IMG/VR virus record: IMGVR_UViG_3300025030_000039
Coordinates: 380,878-429,198 of that record
DNA length: 48,321 nt
From: a virus
Direction: 5' to 3' (one strand)
Part shown: positions 201-9,729 of the stretch, piece after piece
Numbering within the stretch: position 1 is the stretch's first letter
Layout: every line of letters begins with the position of its first letter
The notes under the pieces: model-generated
The model's database searches: none
The model's input: the letters and a program-made list of their open reading frames with translations, nothing else
Told to the model about the DNA's origin: nothing
Translations under genes and position numbers: made by a program

Positions 201-218
201 CTTTTTTTATTTAGTTTG

Positions 219-295
219 TCCGCTAAGATGGATTTGAACCAGCATGTAACCAATTAACCTTTCAACCGGGTATCAGCCGGAGGGTATATTAGCGG
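219..295 (-). tRNA. tRNA-like element of uncertain identity (possibly aberrant/pseudo-tRNA; candidate anticodon loop CTGATAC = GAU/Ile)
   Basis: rc contains a 7-bp acceptor stem (CCGCTAA/TTAGCGG), T-arm GCTGG-TTCAAAT-CCATC (one C-T mismatch) and a palindromic hairpin CCGG-CTGATAC-CCGG; no canonical D-arm could be folded by hand; 77 nt without CCA. Confidence 0.3.
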
Positions 296-306
296 TTTAT
301 AATTTG

Positions 307-377
307 CAGATCTACAAAGATTCGAACTCTGAAAGACGGGTCTGGAATCCGTCGTGTTACCATTACACTATAGACCT
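307..377 (-). tRNA. tRNA-Trp (anticodon CCA)
   Basis: rc: acceptor AGGTCTA/TAGATCT, D-stem GTGT/ACAC, anticodon stem ACGGA/CCCGT (A31-C39 mismatch) with loop TTCCAGA, T-arm CAGAG-TTCGAAT-CTTTG, discriminator G; 71 nt, folded by hand. Confidence 0.5.
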
Positions 378-388
378 ATTTAAATTCG

Positions 389-464
389 TGGGAACTGAGA
401 GATTTGAACTCCCGGCCTTAATTTTGTAAGAATTCTGCTCTAAACCAAACTGAGCTAAGCTCCC
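389..464 (-). tRNA. tRNA-Val (anticodon TAC)
   Basis: rc: acceptor GGGAGCT/AGTTCCC, D-stem GCTC/GAGC, anticodon stem GAATT/AATTA (G27-A43 mismatch) with loop CTTACAA, variable AGGCC, T-arm GGGAG-TTCAAAT-CTCTC, discriminator A; 76 nt. Confidence 0.55.
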
Positions 465-483
465 ATTTACACCTAAACTTTTG

Positions 484-567
484 TACTACGTATGGGATTC
501 GAACCCATGAGTTGTTTCCAACACAACAGTGAAAGTGTTGCGACCTAAACCTCTAGTCGAACGTAGC
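484..567 (-). tRNA. tRNA-Glu (anticodon TTC) with unusually long (15-nt) variable region
   Basis: rc: acceptor GCTACGT/ACGTAGT, D-stem GACT/GGTC, perfect anticodon stem CAACA/TGTTG with loop CTTTCAC, T-arm ATGGG-TTCGAAT-CCCAT; 15 nt (TGTTGGAAACAACTC, hairpin GTTG-GAAA-CAAC) between anticodon stem and T-stem. Confidence 0.5.
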
Positions 568-589
568 ATTTAAATTTGGGTGGAAGATG

Positions 590-673
590 GGTACCTGATA
601 GGATTCGAACCTACGATGTTTCTAATGTATAGAGCCACAATCTATTGCCTTCGGCCGCTAGGCTACAGATACC
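590..673 (-). tRNA. tRNA-His (anticodon GTG) with encoded G-1 and a long (14-nt) variable region
   Basis: rc: extra 5' G (G-1) opposite discriminator C73, acceptor GTATCTG/CAGGTAC (one G-U), D-stem GCCT/AGGC, perfect anticodon stem ATAGA/TCTAT with loop TTGTGGC, T-arm GTAGG-TTCGAAT-CCTAT; 14 nt (ACATTAGAAACATC) in variable position. Confidence 0.55.
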
Positions 674-690
674 ATATTAAATATTTCAAA

Positions 691-731
691 GAACAAAATA
701 AAAAGGTTCAAATCTTGCGATTTGAACCTTT
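691..731 (-). terminator. rho-independent terminator (perfect 13-bp stem, loop TTGC, then U-tract on minus strand)
   Basis: aaaggttcaaatc (702-714) / gatttgaaccttt (719-731) perfect inverted repeat; minus-strand RNA continues UUAUUUUGUUC (rc of 691-701). Confidence 0.6.
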
Positions 732-6951: not shown

Positions 6952-7185
6952 TTATATATTTTCTTTTTTAGCTCTTAAAATTTTTGGTATAAATTCTTCA
7001 TTAATATTTTTGCAATCTGCACATCTAAAACCTGGTATAGGTAAATTTTCCTTTTTACCTGTTCCTGATTGTAAAATAGATGCAATTTTAATTATATAAA
7101 TTTGTTCAAATACATCACTACCACATTTTGAACAAACTGCATTAGGCATATTTGGAATTTCATTTTTAATTGTTAATTGATTCAT
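6952..7185 (-). CDS. small zinc-ribbon protein (77 aa)
   Basis: CSKCGS ... CADCKN four-Cys arrangement; 4-nt overlap with the next gene's stop. Confidence 0.4.
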   Translation of the reverse strand: MNQLTIKNEIPNMPNAVCSKCGSDVFEQIYIIKIASILQSGTGKKENLPIPGFRCADCKNINEEFIPKILRAKKENI

Positions 7186-8921
7186 GACATTAAATTTTTT
7201 AATCTGTTATTAAAGTGATCTGGAAAATTTTCTCTATTATTTAATATATTCATTATAGTACCATCTATAAAATAAGTTATAGCCCAATCGTCTTTTGTTC
7301 TAATTGATCTACCCACGCCCTGAAAAATACTGATTTCTGTTTTCCAAGAATACCATTCATTTGATTTTTTTAATTTTGCTTTAACTAATGGATCTGATAA
7401 TGATGGATATGGAACTTTAAAAAATATTTGAAATCTACTTATATCATCTTTTAAATCTAAACCTTCTAAAAGAGATGGTCCTATAAGTATTAAACCTTCT
7501 TTGTTATTTTTAAAAGTATTTAATATTTGTAATTTTTCTTGAGTATTAACGTAACTAATTAATCTATTTTTGTATTTTGAATTTTTTAAAATATAATTCA
7601 TGAATTCATAAGATCCAGTATGAATAATACCTGAATTATTTTTATGTTTTTTCTCAATAATATAATCCATTACTTTTAATACATACGGAAGATTTTTTTC
7701 TTTTTCTTTATATGATAATTTATATTTAGGTAAATAGAAAATAGGTGATTTATCATAATTAAAATCACTAGGTATTCTCATAAATTTAACTTTATCTAAA
7801 GCTATAACATTTGCATATCTCTGAGGTGTTCCAATAGTAGCACTCATAAAAATTTTAAAACCTGCTTGTTTATGCATATGTTTAATTATCATAAATCTTT
7901 CATCTAAACAATTAAATTTAATTTCATCATTAGCTTCATTCTTTATAATATTATCTACAGAAGTTAAAGTTATTATTTCATTATAATCTTCTAATTTACA
8001 ATGTAAATCTTTTATCCAATCTAATATCCATAAACCTCTTTTCCATTCTTTAGGTAATTTTCTTTTATCAAAGGGATATAAATCTTTAAGTACTGTTTTT
8101 ATTTCTTCCGCAATACTAATAAAAGGAACTAATATAGATTCAACTTCTTTTAATAATTCAAATAATATAGATGTGCTTTCATTATCATAAATACGCTCAA
8201 TAATTTTTAATAAATTTGAATGATTATAACTAGCATTTAATTTAAAAAGAAAACCATTTTTATTAATAATTTGAGAAATTTCATATAAATAATCTCCAAT
8301 ATTTCTAGTTATTTTCGGTGAAAAATGATTCTGTATTATATCATCTATTTTATGTGCTTCATCAAAAAATATAAAATCTCTTTTTTGAAAAGGAACTGGC
8401 TTATCGGCTTCTTCCATTTTTCTGGCTACGTAATTTCTTTGTATAAGCCAGTAATTATATGTTAATAAAGTAATTTTATTTTCAATAGCTTTATCTCTTG
8501 TAACTAAATATTCGCAATTACTTCTGCAATATAACAAATTAGGATTTAAATTTCTACATCTACATTCTCCAATAGAAAATTTTTCATCATTAATATGACA
8601 TTTATAATTATCTACACCATTAATAAATCCAAAATTTAATTTGTATTTTATAAAATCTTCTTTATACTGTTCATATAACGAAATTTCACTAGTTAAAATA
8701 TATCCAGAATATTTTAATTTTTCTAATACATATGATACAGCAAGTGCAATTATACTTTTACCTGAACCTGTCGGTGCATCTAAAATAATTGAATCATATT
8801 TATTTTCTAAATATGTATTAATTACTTCTAATATTGCTTCTTTTTGCCATAATCTAAATTTAAAATCATTAGAAATGCTAATTTTAAAATTATTTAAATG
8901 CTCATTTATAATATTAATCAT
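7182..8921 (-). CDS. SF2 DNA helicase, DinG/Rad3(XPD)-like with Fe-S cluster domain
   Basis: Walker A ILDAPTGSGKS, four-Cys insert CHINDEKFSIGECRCRNLNPNLLYCRSNCEY, DEAH box FFDEAHKIDD, motif VI QGVGRSIRTKDD. Confidence 0.65.
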   Translation of the reverse strand: MINIINEHLNNFKISISNDFKFRLWQKEAILEVINTYLENKYDSIILDAPTGSGKSIIALAVSYVLEKLKYSGYILTSEISLYEQYKEDFIKYKLNFGFINGVDNYKCHINDEKFSIGECRCRNLNPNLLYCRSNCEYLVTRDKAIENKITLLTYNYWLIQRNYVARKMEEADKPVPFQKRDFIFFDEAHKIDDIIQNHFSPKITRNIGDYLYEISQIINKNGFLFKLNASYNHSNLLKIIERIYDNESTSILFELLKEVESILVPFISIAEEIKTVLKDLYPFDKRKLPKEWKRGLWILDWIKDLHCKLEDYNEIITLTSVDNIIKNEANDEIKFNCLDERFMIIKHMHKQAGFKIFMSATIGTPQRYANVIALDKVKFMRIPSDFNYDKSPIFYLPKYKLSYKEKEKNLPYVLKVMDYIIEKKHKNNSGIIHTGSYEFMNYILKNSKYKNRLISYVNTQEKLQILNTFKNNKEGLILIGPSLLEGLDLKDDISRFQIFFKVPYPSLSDPLVKAKLKKSNEWYSWKTEISIFQGVGRSIRTKDDWAITYFIDGTIMNILNNRENFPDHFNNRLKNLMS

Positions 8922-9729
8922 TATTTAATTTTAAGTTATAACTCCAAAAATAATTTTTGAATTTTTTATTTTTTCTAGCGACATATGAAATACTATTTCT
9001 TAAAAATCCAAGATTTTCATTTATTTCATTTGAAGAATTCCAAATTTTTAATAATTTCCAATTTAAATCATATTGATATATTTTTTTAATATATTTACTC
9101 ATAGCATTTTTAATATTATTTTTACCTTTTTCTGATCTAGGTTTACTCATATTTTGTATTCTTTCTTTTGTATGTAATTTATTTTTTAATGAATTAGAAA
9201 TATTTTTTTTTCTTTCTATTGAAAATATTTTATTTTTATTACCTTTTGATATTTTTTCTTTATGATCTTTTGATAATTTTTTACCGTACATTGGATTTTT
9301 TGATCCTTTTTTTAAATCAGATAATTTTTTTTTTAATTCTGGATTATTAGCATACATTATTTTTAATGATTCTGATTTTTTTCTACCTTCCTCTTTAGAT
9401 CCTTTCCTATACTTAAATGAATATGCTATAGGTAAAATATTAAATCCTTTATCTCTTTCATATGATTTATATAAATCTATATAATATTGTTCTCTCTCCT
9501 TTAATTGTTCTAAAAAAAATTCATCATAATATTCTAGTATTTCAATTTTAAAACATTCTTCTCCATATTTATTATAGCTTCTTTGTAATAATATTTGAGC
9601 TTTATTTTTTCTTAAAGCTTTAAAATGACCATTAATTCTTCTATTAATATCTTTACTTGAACCTATATAAATTTTATTATTAGCTTCACATATAATTTTA
9701 TATATGCCCGGTTTACTTTTATAATACAT
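8914..9729 (-). CDS. free-standing GIY-YIG homing endonuclease (Seg/I-TevI-like) with NUMOD3-type C-terminal DNA-binding repeats
   Basis: GIYKI...YIGSS...R..GH..AL N-terminal GIY-YIG motif; repeated G.K.S.E.K.KIS-like basic modules downstream; overlaps helicase gene by 8 nt. Confidence 0.65.
   Translation of the reverse strand: MYYKSKPGIYKIICEANNKIYIGSSKDINRRINGHFKALRKNKAQILLQRSYNKYGEECFKIEILEYYDEFFLEQLKEREQYYIDLYKSYERDKGFNILPIAYSFKYRKGSKEEGRKKSESLKIMYANNPELKKKLSDLKKGSKNPMYGKKLSKDHKEKISKGNKNKIFSIERKKNISNSLKNKLHTKERIQNMSKPRSEKGKNNIKNAMSKYIKKIYQYDLNWKLLKIWNSSNEINENLGFLRNSISYVARKNKKFKNYFWSYNLKLNND

What the first reader, a model, noticed from the sequence alone, without database searches (positions are those of the whole stretch)
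484..673. tRNA-Glu and tRNA-His carry similar 14-15-nt inserts (..TTRGAAACA..) in the variable region
Both hand-folded cloverleafs are otherwise canonical, including the His-specific G-1:C73, but have 14-15 nt between the anticodon stem and T-stem (Glu TGTTGGAAACAACTC, His ACATTAGAAACATC), sharing a TTRGAAACAWC core. Class I tRNAs normally have 4-5 nt there. A shared insert in two different isoacceptors suggests either a functional element (recognition by a phage or host factor, or a cleavage/processing determinant, for example against an anticodon nuclease) or a small inserted element.
Basis: seen in the sequence. Interest (0 to 1): 0.5.

Follow-up and report, generated by a model that had tools for sequence, protein, structure and literature searches.

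The report
Phage Glu/His tRNAs with extra arm
The only glutamate and histidine tRNAs of this 462-kb phage carry a long "variable arm" that textbooks reserve for leucine, serine and tyrosine tRNAs, and the same oddity recurs in many unrelated large phages but was not seen in a sample of cellular genomes, so it looks like a selected phage tRNA design rather than an accident.

Summary
ARAGORN and Rfam call tRNA-Glu(UUC) at 484-567 and tRNA-His(GUG) at 590-673, both on the minus strand. Their variable regions are 15 and 14 nt, against 4-5 nt in 15 other class I tRNAs of the same genome.

The "shared insert" reading is not supported. The Glu region is a 4-bp hairpin with a GAAA tetraloop. The His region has no stable pairing. 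Ten percent of unrelated phage Glu x His arm pairs are equally similar.

Scans of IMG/VR found 35 loci with long-arm tRNA-Glu and 37 with long-arm tRNA-His, plus long-arm Asn, Asp, Cys, Met, Lys, Gln, Trp and Thr tRNAs. Many sit beside a normal-length paralogue. In 21 Glu sequences all five arm pairs show compensatory changes. Identity marks are kept (G-1 in 28 of 31 His). None of 120 cellular hits to the same pattern was such a tRNA-His. Two cultured Arthrobacter phages carry one.

Best reading: these are functional tRNAs with a class II-like arm. The most likely purpose, which is inferred, is to differ from host tRNAs and escape tRNA-cleaving defences. T5/SP15 tRNA-Tyr does this through its variable loop. 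I rate this a new variant of a known kind, of moderate to high interest.

The parts
484..567 (-). tRNA-Glu(UUC), 84 nt without CCA, with a G1.U72 acceptor pair, a Glu-type D-arm and discriminator A73
   Evidence: ARAGORN. Rfam RF00005, 50.8 bits. It scores 87.8 bits on the long-arm Glu model R1. The predicted minimum-energy fold is the cloverleaf plus the arm hairpin.
509..523 (-). Glu variable arm U-GUUG-GAAA-CAAC-UC: stem 519-522 paired with 511-514, GNRA tetraloop at 515-518
   Evidence: Drawn as a hairpin by ARAGORN. It folds alone at -3.3 kcal/mol; 1 of 200 shuffles folds as well. The homologous helix has compensatory changes at 5 of 5 pairs in 21 phage tRNA-Glu sequences.
531..533 (-). 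Glu anticodon UUC
   Evidence: and the sequence
590..673 (-). tRNA-His(GUG) with encoded G-1 (673) pairing with discriminator C73 (590), giving an 8-bp acceptor helix, and a class II-like D-arm GCCUAGCGGCCGAAGGC
   Evidence: ARAGORN. Rfam, 54.6 bits. RNAalifold on 7 subfamily members gives the cloverleaf, with compensatory changes at 12 of 22 pairs. The nearest D-arms are of Ser type.
615..628 (-). His variable region ACAUUAGAAACAUC, conserved in sequence across its subfamily (UACAUWAGAAACRYC) but without stable pairing; at most a mini-stem A.C/U-A/U-A with an AGA triloop
   Evidence: Predicted unpaired by ARAGORN, by RNAfold at 0 kcal/mol and by RNAalifold. The same motif occurs in IMG/VR loci L036, L076, L052, L059, L067 and L087 and in 11 AT-rich contigs of the metagenome collection (at least two labelled human gut).
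636..638 (-). His anticodon GUG (anticodon loop UUGUGGC, G37)
   Evidence: and the sequence
389..464 (-). tRNA-Val(UAC) of the same cluster with a normal 5-nt variable loop (internal control)
307..377 (-). tRNA-Trp(CCA) of the same cluster with a normal 4-nt variable loop (internal control)
702..731 (-). Terminator-like 13-bp hairpin followed by a T-run, just upstream of tRNA-His; it closes the preceding gene (922-1986)

Best explanation
Both genes encode real, translationally competent tRNAs built on a class II-like plan: a normal cloverleaf for glutamate or histidine plus a long variable arm. They are members of a widespread, phage-enriched class of long-arm versions of normally short-arm (class I) tRNAs. 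The arm is part of the mature tRNA. It is not an intron and not a mobile insert. Host GluRS and HisRS presumably charge these tRNAs, because the phage has no detectable homologue of either enzyme and the cognate identity marks are intact. The most likely function, which is inferred, is that the protruding arm makes the phage tRNA structurally unlike the host isoacceptor. Host or competitor tRNA-targeting nucleases that dock on or cut near the variable/anticodon side would then fail to recognise it, and translation of Glu and His codons would continue during infection. Shown here: the gene calls, the arm structure and its covariation, the distribution, the paralogue relationships and the retained identity marks. 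Inferred: expression, charging and nuclease resistance. My confidence in the structural core is about 0.9. My confidence in the anti-nuclease purpose is about 0.35-0.4.
For: Both gene finders call the genes. They are the phage's only Glu and His tRNAs. IMG/VR scans gave 35 loci with tRNA-Glu(UUC) of 80 nt or more and 37 with tRNA-His(GUG) of 80 nt or more. The Glu arm is a hairpin: mean longest stem 4.31 bp against 3.08 +/- 0.145 in shuffles (0 of 1000 shuffles reach it), with 25 distinct stems and mostly GNRA loops. On 21 sequences, 5 of 5 arm pairs have changes on both sides and 93.7% of cells are paired; sliding the partners gives 31-44% for the whole structure. Identity marks are kept: G-1 in 28 of 31 long-arm His, and isotype-appropriate discriminators in long-arm Asn, Asp, Cys and Trp. 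With the arm removed, 24 of 29 long-arm Glu are nearest to a short-arm Glu. Clear paralogue pairs exist: L053 His-83 and His-73 share D-arm and T stem, and L215 Glu-86 and Glu-73 share the acceptor stem. A normal copy lies in the same array in 19 of 35 (Glu) and 11 of 37 (His) loci. None of the first 120 cellular-genome hits to the same His pattern is a long-arm tRNA-His. tblastn finds no GluRS or HisRS in the phage. Cultured Arthrobacter phages Talia1610 and Racecar carry an 85-86-nt tRNA-His next to an RNA ligase gene; the arm is identical in both while the acceptor and D stems changed in a compensatory way. LR756500 encodes a T4 Pnkp-like kinase-phosphatase inside its tRNA array. Precedent: Retron-Eco7/PtuAB and Septu cut E. 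coli tRNA-Tyr in the variable loop, and SP15/T5 tRNA-Tyr escapes because of its distinctive longer variable loop (PMC12673091, PMC13096335). HisRS charges microhelices bearing G-1:C73, so an extra arm should be tolerated (PMC9976931).
Against: No expression, charging or cleavage data exist for any of these tRNAs. In E. coli the absence of residue 47 and the U13-G22:A46 triple are major GluRS determinants (PMC9976931), so a long arm might impair charging in some hosts. The window's His region is conserved in sequence rather than in pairing, which fits a sequence-specific partner better than a generic steric shield. The isotype spread (His, Asn, Asp, Glu, Gln, Lys, Met, Cys, Trp, Thr) overlaps known nuclease targets only qualitatively, and it was read off post hoc from a biased sample. 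Pnkp and RNA ligase genes are common in tRNA-rich phages. The host of LR756500 is unknown.
Confidence: 0.45

Rival explanations
1. The arm is a recognition handle. A phage-encoded or host protein, such as a modification enzyme, a chaperone or protector, or a tRNA-dependent enzyme, binds the extra arm and so marks phage tRNAs for a special fate.
For: The window's His variable region is conserved in sequence (ACAUWAGAAAC) while the acceptor, anticodon and T stems vary. GNRA tetraloops, common docking motifs, dominate the arms. The source paper notes tRNA-modification genes in huge phages (PMC7162821).
Against: Across phages the Glu arms share shape but not sequence (25 distinct stems). The trait occurs in unrelated phage lineages, from phages of Actinobacteria to AT-rich contigs of the metagenome collection (at least two labelled human gut) and 640-kb phages, so no single partner protein is evident. 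None turned up among the 30 ORFs scanned with Pfam near the arrays.
Confidence: 0.2
2. The arm is a tolerated evolutionary legacy with no special function. Some long-arm tRNAs descend from class II tRNAs (Leu, Tyr, Ser) by an anticodon and identity switch. Others picked up a hairpin that the synthetase, EF-Tu and the ribosome simply tolerate.
For: The window His D-arm is nearest to Ser-type D-arms. Of the long-arm His tRNAs, 14 of 32 have a Tyr, Leu or Ser D-arm as nearest match. The Talia1610 tRNA-His is most similar to phage tRNA-Leu genes. The LR756500 tRNA-Asp shares its D-arm and anticodon stem with tRNA-Tyr. HisRS ignores the tRNA body.
Against: The trait recurs across many isotypes and lineages. 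The hairpin is kept by compensatory change. The arm is identical in Talia1610 and Racecar while other stems changed. The Glu bodies are Glu-type and gained the arm. Long-arm His was not found in the cellular sample.
Confidence: 0.15
3. The tRNAs cause recoding by mischarging. The long arm recruits SerRS (or LeuRS or TyrRS), so Glu and His codons are partly read as another amino acid, as with nematode nev-tRNAs.
For: SerRS recognises the size of the arm rather than the anticodon (PMC9976931). nev-tRNAs and allo-tRNAs are precedents (PMC3333845, PMC5389517).
Against: The discriminators are A73 (Glu) and C73 with G-1 (His), not the G73 of bacterial tRNA-Ser. Cognate identity marks are conserved. 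These are the phage's only Glu and His tRNAs. The arms are short, with 4-5 bp stems or, in the window's His, no stem.
Confidence: 0.05
4. The extra nucleotides are a small inserted element or an intron shared by both genes and removed during maturation, or else the genes are decaying pseudogenes.
For: The two regions share TTRGAAACAWC.
Against: That similarity is ordinary among unrelated arms (10% of pairs). There are no repeats or target-site features, and 12-15 nt is far too short for a bacterial group I intron. After removing the hairpin only 3 nt would remain (U+UC in Glu), fewer than a class I loop needs. All stems are intact and covary. These are the only Glu and His tRNAs of the genome.
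Confidence: 0.03

Closest known systems
Class II tRNAs (bacterial tRNA-Leu, -Ser, -Tyr, -Sec)
   Same: A variable region of 12 nt or more between the anticodon and T arms. In Glu it forms a short hairpin with a 1-nt 5' spacer and a 2-nt 3' spacer ending in C48. The window's His also has a class II-style D-arm.
   Different: The anticodons and identity marks are those of Glu and His (G-1:C73), amino acids whose tRNAs are class I in all compiled cellular sets (PMC9976931, PMC7609411). The His arm has no stable stem.
T5/SP15 phage tRNA-Tyr with a distinctive longer variable loop that resists Retron-Eco7 (PtuAB)
   Same: A phage-encoded isoacceptor whose variable arm differs from the host's. In that case the arm difference is experimentally required for escape from a nuclease that cuts in the variable loop (PMC12673091, PMC13096335).
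   Different: That case remodels an arm that already exists in a class II tRNA. Here an arm appears on class I isoacceptors. No nuclease or phenotype is known for these tRNAs.
allo-tRNAs and (8/4) tRNA-Ser / tRNA-His of phages (Mukai et al. 2017, PMC5389517)
   Same: Non-canonical tRNAs found in metagenomes and phage tRNA clusters. allo-tRNAs combine a long variable arm with non-Ser anticodons.
   Different: allo-tRNAs have 8/4 or 9/3 acceptor/T helices and Ser identity. The (8/4) tRNA-His lacks G-1 and has A73 or U73. The window tRNAs are 7/5 with G-1:C73 (His) and a Glu-type body.
Nematode nev-tRNAs (PMC3333845)
   Same: A class II architecture combined with an anticodon of a class I amino acid.
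   Different: nev-tRNAs are Leu-type bodies charged with leucine. Here the cognate identity marks are kept and most Glu bodies are Glu-type.
Engineered tRNAs with hairpin-tagged variable arms and His identity (Mukai 2020, PMC7590224)
   Same: They show that a tRNA with a long variable arm can be given His identity and work in E. coli translation.
   Different: They are synthetic, built on a 9/3 allo-tRNA chassis, and are not natural isoacceptors.

Membership tests
tRNA (Rfam RF00005), bacterial-type elongator | Cloverleaf with a 7-bp acceptor, D, anticodon and T arms, a 7-nt anticodon loop and a T-loop of UUCGAAU type | tested here: met
   Rfam scores of 50.8 and 54.6 bits against a gathering score of 29 over model positions 1-71; ARAGORN cloverleaves.
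Class I tRNA (the usual class for Glu and His) | Variable loop of 4-5 nt | tested here: not met
   The variable regions are 15 nt (Glu) and 14 nt (His), against 4-5 nt in 15 other tRNAs of the genome.
tRNA-His (bacterial) | Genome-encoded G-1 pairing with C73, and anticodon GUG | tested here: met
   G673 and C590, anticodon at 636-638. G-1 is present in 28 of 31 long-arm phage tRNA-His. The 8-bp acceptor helix covaries.
tRNA-Glu (E. coli-type identity set) | U34 U35 C36 A37, U13-G22 with A46, and absence of residue 47 (augmented D helix) | tested here: inconclusive
   The anticodon loop CUUUCAC and U13.G22 are present and the D-arm is Glu-type. The rule of a 4-nt loop without residue 47 is violated by the 15-nt arm (rule from PMC9976931). 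Charging was not testable.
Class II tRNA (Leu/Ser/Tyr/Sec) | Long variable arm forming a stem-loop | tested here: met
   Met for Glu: GUUG/CAAC plus GAAA, with covariation at 5 of 5 pairs. For His the length criterion is met but no stable stem is predicted.
Class II tRNA (Leu/Ser/Tyr/Sec) | Anticodon and discriminator of Leu, Ser, Tyr or Sec | tested here: not met
   The anticodons are UUC and GUG. The discriminators are A73 (Glu) and C73 with G-1 (His).
allo-tRNA / (8/4) phage tRNA-His (Mukai 2017) | 8/4 or 9/3 acceptor/T-stem configuration; the (8/4) tRNA-His lacks G-1 and has A73 or U73 | tested here: not met
   7-bp acceptor (8 with G-1) and 5-bp T stems, with C73. Definition taken from PMC5389517.
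Intron-containing tRNA (group I or bulge-helix-bulge) | An intron of suitable size and structure, usually in or next to the anticodon loop, whose removal leaves a canonical tRNA | tested here: not met
   ARAGORN in intron mode gives no better model. The extra 12-15 nt lie in the variable region, and removing the hairpin leaves only 3 nt. Whether the RNA is processed is not testable with these tools.
Anti-defence phage tRNA (nuclease-resistant isoacceptor, as for T5 tRNA-Tyr or tRNA-Lys) | Resistance to a defined tRNA-targeting nuclease and rescue of infection | not testable with these tools
   Only circumstantial evidence: a structural difference from canonical tRNAs, normal paralogues in the same arrays, a Pnkp-like gene in the array, and an RNA ligase gene next to the long-arm His in Talia1610 and Racecar.

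The most novel reading that the evidence does not exclude
Large phages systematically rebuild the variable region of their tRNAs. They add an arm to class I isoacceptors (Glu, His, Asn, Asp, Lys, Gln, Met, Cys, Trp, Thr) and delete it from tRNA-Leu. The result would be a partly orthogonal tRNA set that host tRNA-directed immunity cannot recognise. Variable-arm remodelling would then be a general, previously unrecognised axis of the phage-host arms race, and a natural source of orthogonal tRNA scaffolds.
Probability: 0.3. Interest if true: 0.85.

Novelty: new variant of a known kind. Interest (0 to 1): 0.62.

Why it matters
The split of bacterial tRNAs into class I (short variable loop) and class II (Leu, Ser, Tyr, Sec) is treated as fixed, and synthetase identity rules are built on it. 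One example is the rule that E. coli tRNA-Glu lacks residue 47.

Natural, conserved tRNA-Glu and tRNA-His with long arms, plus the wider set seen here, show that phages break this rule repeatedly.

If the arm protects against tRNA-cleaving defences, the one experimentally shown case (the T5/SP15 tRNA-Tyr variable loop) would extend into a general strategy.

The sequences also say which synthetases tolerate an extra arm, which is useful for designing orthogonal tRNAs. Cultured hosts and phages exist (Arthrobacter globiformis with Talia1610 or Racecar), so the question can be tested directly.

Tried and rejected
- **Shared insert.** I compared the window's Glu and His arms with all Glu x His arm pairs from other phages. 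The similarity is ordinary, so I rejected this.
- **Intron.** ARAGORN in intron mode gave only spurious long-intron calls on the other strand. Rejected.
- **Class II tRNA with a mutated anticodon.** With the arm removed, most Glu bodies are nearest to short-arm Glu. I rejected this for Glu. It remains possible as an origin for His.
- **Phage-encoded GluRS or HisRS.** tblastn with the E. coli enzymes against the whole phage found nothing (E > 0.4).
- **RNA ligase in LR756500.** tblastn with the Talia1610 ligase found nothing significant. Other ligase families were not tested.
- **Alternative hairpin in His.** A fold of the anticodon-stem 3' strand with UAGA of the variable region appears in the single-sequence minimum-energy fold. 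It is not conserved in the subfamily.
- **Syntenic relatives.** A search with the neighbouring ORF (922-1986) found none in IMG/VR.
- **Gene context.** Pfam scans of 30 ORFs around the arrays gave no tRNA-specific partner other than a Pnkp-like protein.
- **Literature.** Eight searches found no description of long-arm Glu or His tRNAs in phages.

Full report
**1. What is there**

The window is AT-rich (about 22% G+C) and is identical to LR756500.1 positions 118150-166470, a 462,018-bp curated "uncultured phage" genome.

ARAGORN finds four tRNA genes on the minus strand: Trp(cca) 306-377, Val(tac) 388-464, Glu(ttc) 483-567 and His(gtg) 589-672. The Rfam tRNA model agrees, with 55.2, 60.2, 50.8 and 54.6 bits against a gathering score of 29. 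It places the extra nucleotides of Glu and His as insertions in the variable region.

ARAGORN's drawings show canonical acceptor, D, anticodon and T arms.
- The Glu region is UGUUGGAAACAACUC (window 509-523). It folds as U-GUUG-GAAA-CAAC-UC, a 4-bp stem with a GNRA tetraloop.
- The His region is ACAUUAGAAACAUC (window 615-628) and is drawn unpaired.
- G-1 (673) pairs with C73 (590).

The Glu arm folds alone at -3.3 kcal/mol, and 1 of 200 shuffles does as well. The His region does not fold at all.

**2. Context in the genome**

I assembled the whole record. ARAGORN finds 26 tRNAs and a tmRNA, all between 61.4 and 118.8 kb on one strand. Rfam adds a tRNA-Cys and a fragment.

Fifteen class I tRNAs have variable loops of 4-5 nt. 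Glu (15 nt) and His (14 nt) match the phage's own Tyr, Leu and Ser tRNAs (12-18 nt). Asp has 8 nt. No second Glu or His tRNA exists. tblastn with E. coli GluRS and HisRS finds no homologue, so host enzymes would have to charge these tRNAs.

A T4 Pnkp-like kinase-phosphatase lies inside the array at record positions 114322-115278. Pfam hits the PNK3P domain. Its N-terminal part matches PNKP kinase domains and its C-terminal part matches phosphatase domains among solved structures.

**3. Is it a one-off?**

It is not. I scanned IMG/VR for a His anticodon loop followed at long-arm distance by the T arm (TTGTGGN{20,26}GGTTCGAATCC), and with the equivalent Glu pattern. ARAGORN on the returned loci found tRNA-His(gtg) of 82-89 nt in 37 loci and tRNA-Glu(ttc) of 82-94 nt in 35 loci. 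Many contigs are 100-500 kb long.

None was a long-arm tRNA-His. The hits were Arg, Trp, Pro and Ser tRNAs in which TTGTGG sits in another arm.

Among tRNAs that were not selected for, 62 of 779 unique class I tRNAs in these arrays are 80 nt or longer. They include Asn 11 of 55, Cys 6 of 38, Met 12 of 88, Trp 6 of 45, Gln(UUG) 4 of 35 and Lys(UUU) 4 of 44, plus some Thr, Pro, Asp and Val. None was found for Phe (0 of 55), Ala(UGC) (0 of 50), Arg(ACG/UCU) (0 of 59) or Glu(CUC) (0 of 20). Their discriminators fit the isotype: G73 for Asn, Asp and Trp, and U73 for Cys.

Further examples:
- The 642-kb phage LR756502.1 has a long-arm Glu(UUC) next to a normal one, three long-arm Lys tRNAs and a long-arm Thr.
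- Two cultured phages, Arthrobacter phages Talia1610 and Racecar, carry an 85-86-nt tRNA-His with arm U-GUCA-GAAA-UGAC-AU. It is annotated simply as tRNA-His and sits next to an RNA ligase gene.

**4. Is the arm a selected structure?**

For Glu, yes.
- The 29 unique arms have a mean longest hairpin stem of 4.31 bp, against 3.08 +/- 0.145 in shuffles (0 of 1000 shuffles reach it).
- There are 25 different stems, and loops are mostly GNRA (GAAA 10, GUAA 3, GAGA, GUGA).
- I built a covariance model from eight sequences and aligned 21 long-arm tRNA-Glu, including the window's at 87.8 bits.
- On that alignment all five arm pairs have changes on both sides and 93.7% of cells are paired, which is comparable with the canonical stems. 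Slid controls give 31-44% pairing for the whole structure. The caveat is that the alignment is fitted to the model.

Talia1610 and Racecar differ by compensatory changes in the acceptor and D stems, yet have identical arms.

For His the picture is mixed. Many lineages have clear GNRA hairpins. The window belongs to a subfamily (window, L036, L076, L052, L059, L067, L087, plus 11 AT-rich contigs of the metagenome collection, at least two of them labelled human gut) in which the region UACAUWAGAAACRYC is conserved in sequence. RNAalifold leaves it unpaired, although the rest of the cloverleaf covaries at 12 of 22 pairs. At most a 3-bp mini-stem with an AGA triloop is possible: G-C/U-A/A-U in L052 and A.C/U-A/U-A in the window.

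**5. Shared insert?**

No.
- The two window arms share 9 identities in their best register. That level is reached by 59 of 567 (10%) Glu x His arm pairs from unrelated phages, against 1.4% of mononucleotide shuffles.
- The resemblance reflects a common arm "grammar": a 5' U, an A-rich or GNRA loop and a 3' (A)UC tail ending in C48.
- In Glu the GAAA is the tetraloop. In His the same letters have no such role.
- Long-arm Glu and His rarely co-occur: 1 of 11 Glu in His-selected loci and 0 of 17 His in Glu-selected loci.

**6. Origin**

With the arm removed and the anticodon masked, 24 of 29 long-arm Glu are nearest to a short-arm Glu. In 25 of 29 (Glu) and 27 of 30 (His) the best short-arm neighbour beats the best Leu, Ser or Tyr neighbour.

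Paralogue pairs within one array show the arm arising inside a phage lineage:
- L053 His-83 and His-73 have the same D-arm and T stem. The variable region changed from CUUAU to GUCGGCAACGACAAU, and position 37 is G in the long copy and A in the short one.
- L215 Glu-86 and Glu-73 have the same acceptor stem.

The window Glu has a typical Glu D-arm. The window His has a D-arm closest to Ser-type D-arms, and the Talia1610 tRNA-His resembles phage tRNA-Leu genes. Some long-arm His tRNAs may therefore descend from class II tRNAs by an identity switch.

**7. Function**

What follows is inference. The tRNAs keep cognate identity marks and are the phage's only Glu and His tRNAs, so they are most simply functional adaptors. 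HisRS needs only G-1:C73 plus the anticodon (PMC9976931). For GluRS the E. coli rule that residue 47 is absent would be violated, so tolerance by the host enzyme is an open point.

The trait is enriched in phages, recurs in many isotypes and often sits beside a normal paralogue (19 of 35 Glu loci and 11 of 37 His loci). The arm's shape is conserved while its sequence is not. This fits a generic structural disguise.

The only experimentally shown role of a phage-specific variable arm is escape from tRNA-targeting immunity. [quoted passage not shown] SP15 tRNA-Tyr resists, and loses its anti-defence activity when its longer variable loop is deleted or replaced by the E. coli one (PMC12673091). 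Septu also cuts in that loop (PMC13096335). RNA-repair genes sit in or next to these arrays, and the source paper notes genes for ligating tRNAs cleaved by host defences (PMC7162821).

I therefore favour nuclease evasion, at about 0.35-0.4. The alternatives are a sequence-specific handle for a protein, which suits the window's His better, a tolerated legacy of class II ancestry, and mischarging, which is unlikely.

**8. Novelty**

Eight full-text searches found no description of long-arm Glu or His tRNAs, or other long-arm class I tRNAs, in phages. The nearest published items are:
- allo-tRNAs and (8/4) phage tRNA-His (PMC5389517)
- nev-tRNAs (PMC3333845)
- engineered arm-tagged His tRNAs (PMC7590224)
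- the T5/SP15 tRNA-Tyr case

Reviews state that class I tRNAs have 4-5 nt in the variable region and that only Leu, Ser and Tyr carry the long arm (PMC7609411; PMC9976931). I rate the finding a new variant of a known kind.

Noticed in passing
window 216-292, minus strand: A 77-nt tRNA-like RNA with anticodon loop CUGAUAC (GAU = Ile), missed by ARAGORN and Rfam in the window; it would be the genome's only tRNA-Ile. It has a 7-bp acceptor, only UAUACCCU where the D-arm should be, a 4-bp anticodon stem, then UUGAAAGGUUAAUUGGUUACAU, which contains a D-loop-like AAUUGGUUA, and then a T arm. The D-arm segment seems to have moved to the variable position (an ACC/GGU pairing is possible). Homologues lie unannotated in 37 Streptomyces phage records (83% identity over 59 nt) and in 9 IMG/VR contigs. 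The Mildred21 copy scores 30.3 bits on Rfam tRNA. Ten of 19 stem pairs show compensatory changes while the two odd segments are nearly invariant.
   Followed up: partly
L001 38770-38845 (record 106920-106995); L352 37644-37802; L362-L372: tRNAs with Leu anticodons (UAA, UAG, CAA) of only 74-77 nt, with 5-nt variable loops and A73. In the AT-rich metagenome contigs (at least two labelled human gut) two of them sit right next to the long-arm tRNA-His. In LR756502 they lie beside normal 84-85-nt tRNA-Leu genes. Forty of 100 unique ARAGORN 'Leu' calls in the IMG/VR loci are shorter than 80 nt.
   Followed up: partly
L001 17064-17141 (record 85214-85291): tRNA-Asp(GUC) with an 8-nt variable region (AAAAACAG) and a D-arm and anticodon stem resembling the phage's tRNA-Tyr. 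Relatives in L216 and L226 have full GNRA-type arm hairpins of 18-21 nt. This hints at a Tyr-to-Asp anticodon switch.
   Followed up: partly
L001 42502-42570 (record 110652-110720): A 69-nt tRNA with anticodon CUA (amber-suppressor type) and a reduced D-arm. TAG ends only 18 of 334 ORFs of 150 aa or more, which may mean TAG is recoded or may simply reflect AT bias.
   Followed up: no
L001 46172-47128 minus (record 114322-115278), with tRNA-Cys at L001 46094-46164: A T4 Pnkp-like polynucleotide kinase-phosphatase gene immediately upstream of a tRNA-Cys that ARAGORN missed. No RNA ligase was found with the one query tried.
   Followed up: partly
5' flanks of tRNA-His genes in L010-L227 and window 673-675: The three bases before position 1 are AUG in 26 of 31 unique long-arm tRNA-His and in many normal phage tRNA-His. 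This means a conserved A-U precedes the encoded G-1, perhaps an RNase P processing context.
   Followed up: no
31 IMG/VR loci (e.g. L119, L120, L158, L172): A conserved 92-nt tRNA-like family with anticodon UAU (Ile), encoded CCA, an unusual D region GGUGUUGGUACACAGG and a 24-nt variable arm (UCAGCGCCAGAUUAGCGUUCUCGA) with compensatory changes. It was picked up by chance because the arm contains CTTTCA.
   Followed up: no
L001 26359-26771 (record about 94511-94921): A phage-encoded tmRNA (Rfam 95.5 bits) with tag peptide GNNAEMRMAA.
   Followed up: no
window 7182-9729, minus strand: A DEAD/ResIII-type helicase ORF (7182-8921) overlapped at its start by a GIY-YIG/NUMOD3 homing-endonuclease-like ORF (8914-9729).
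   Followed up: no
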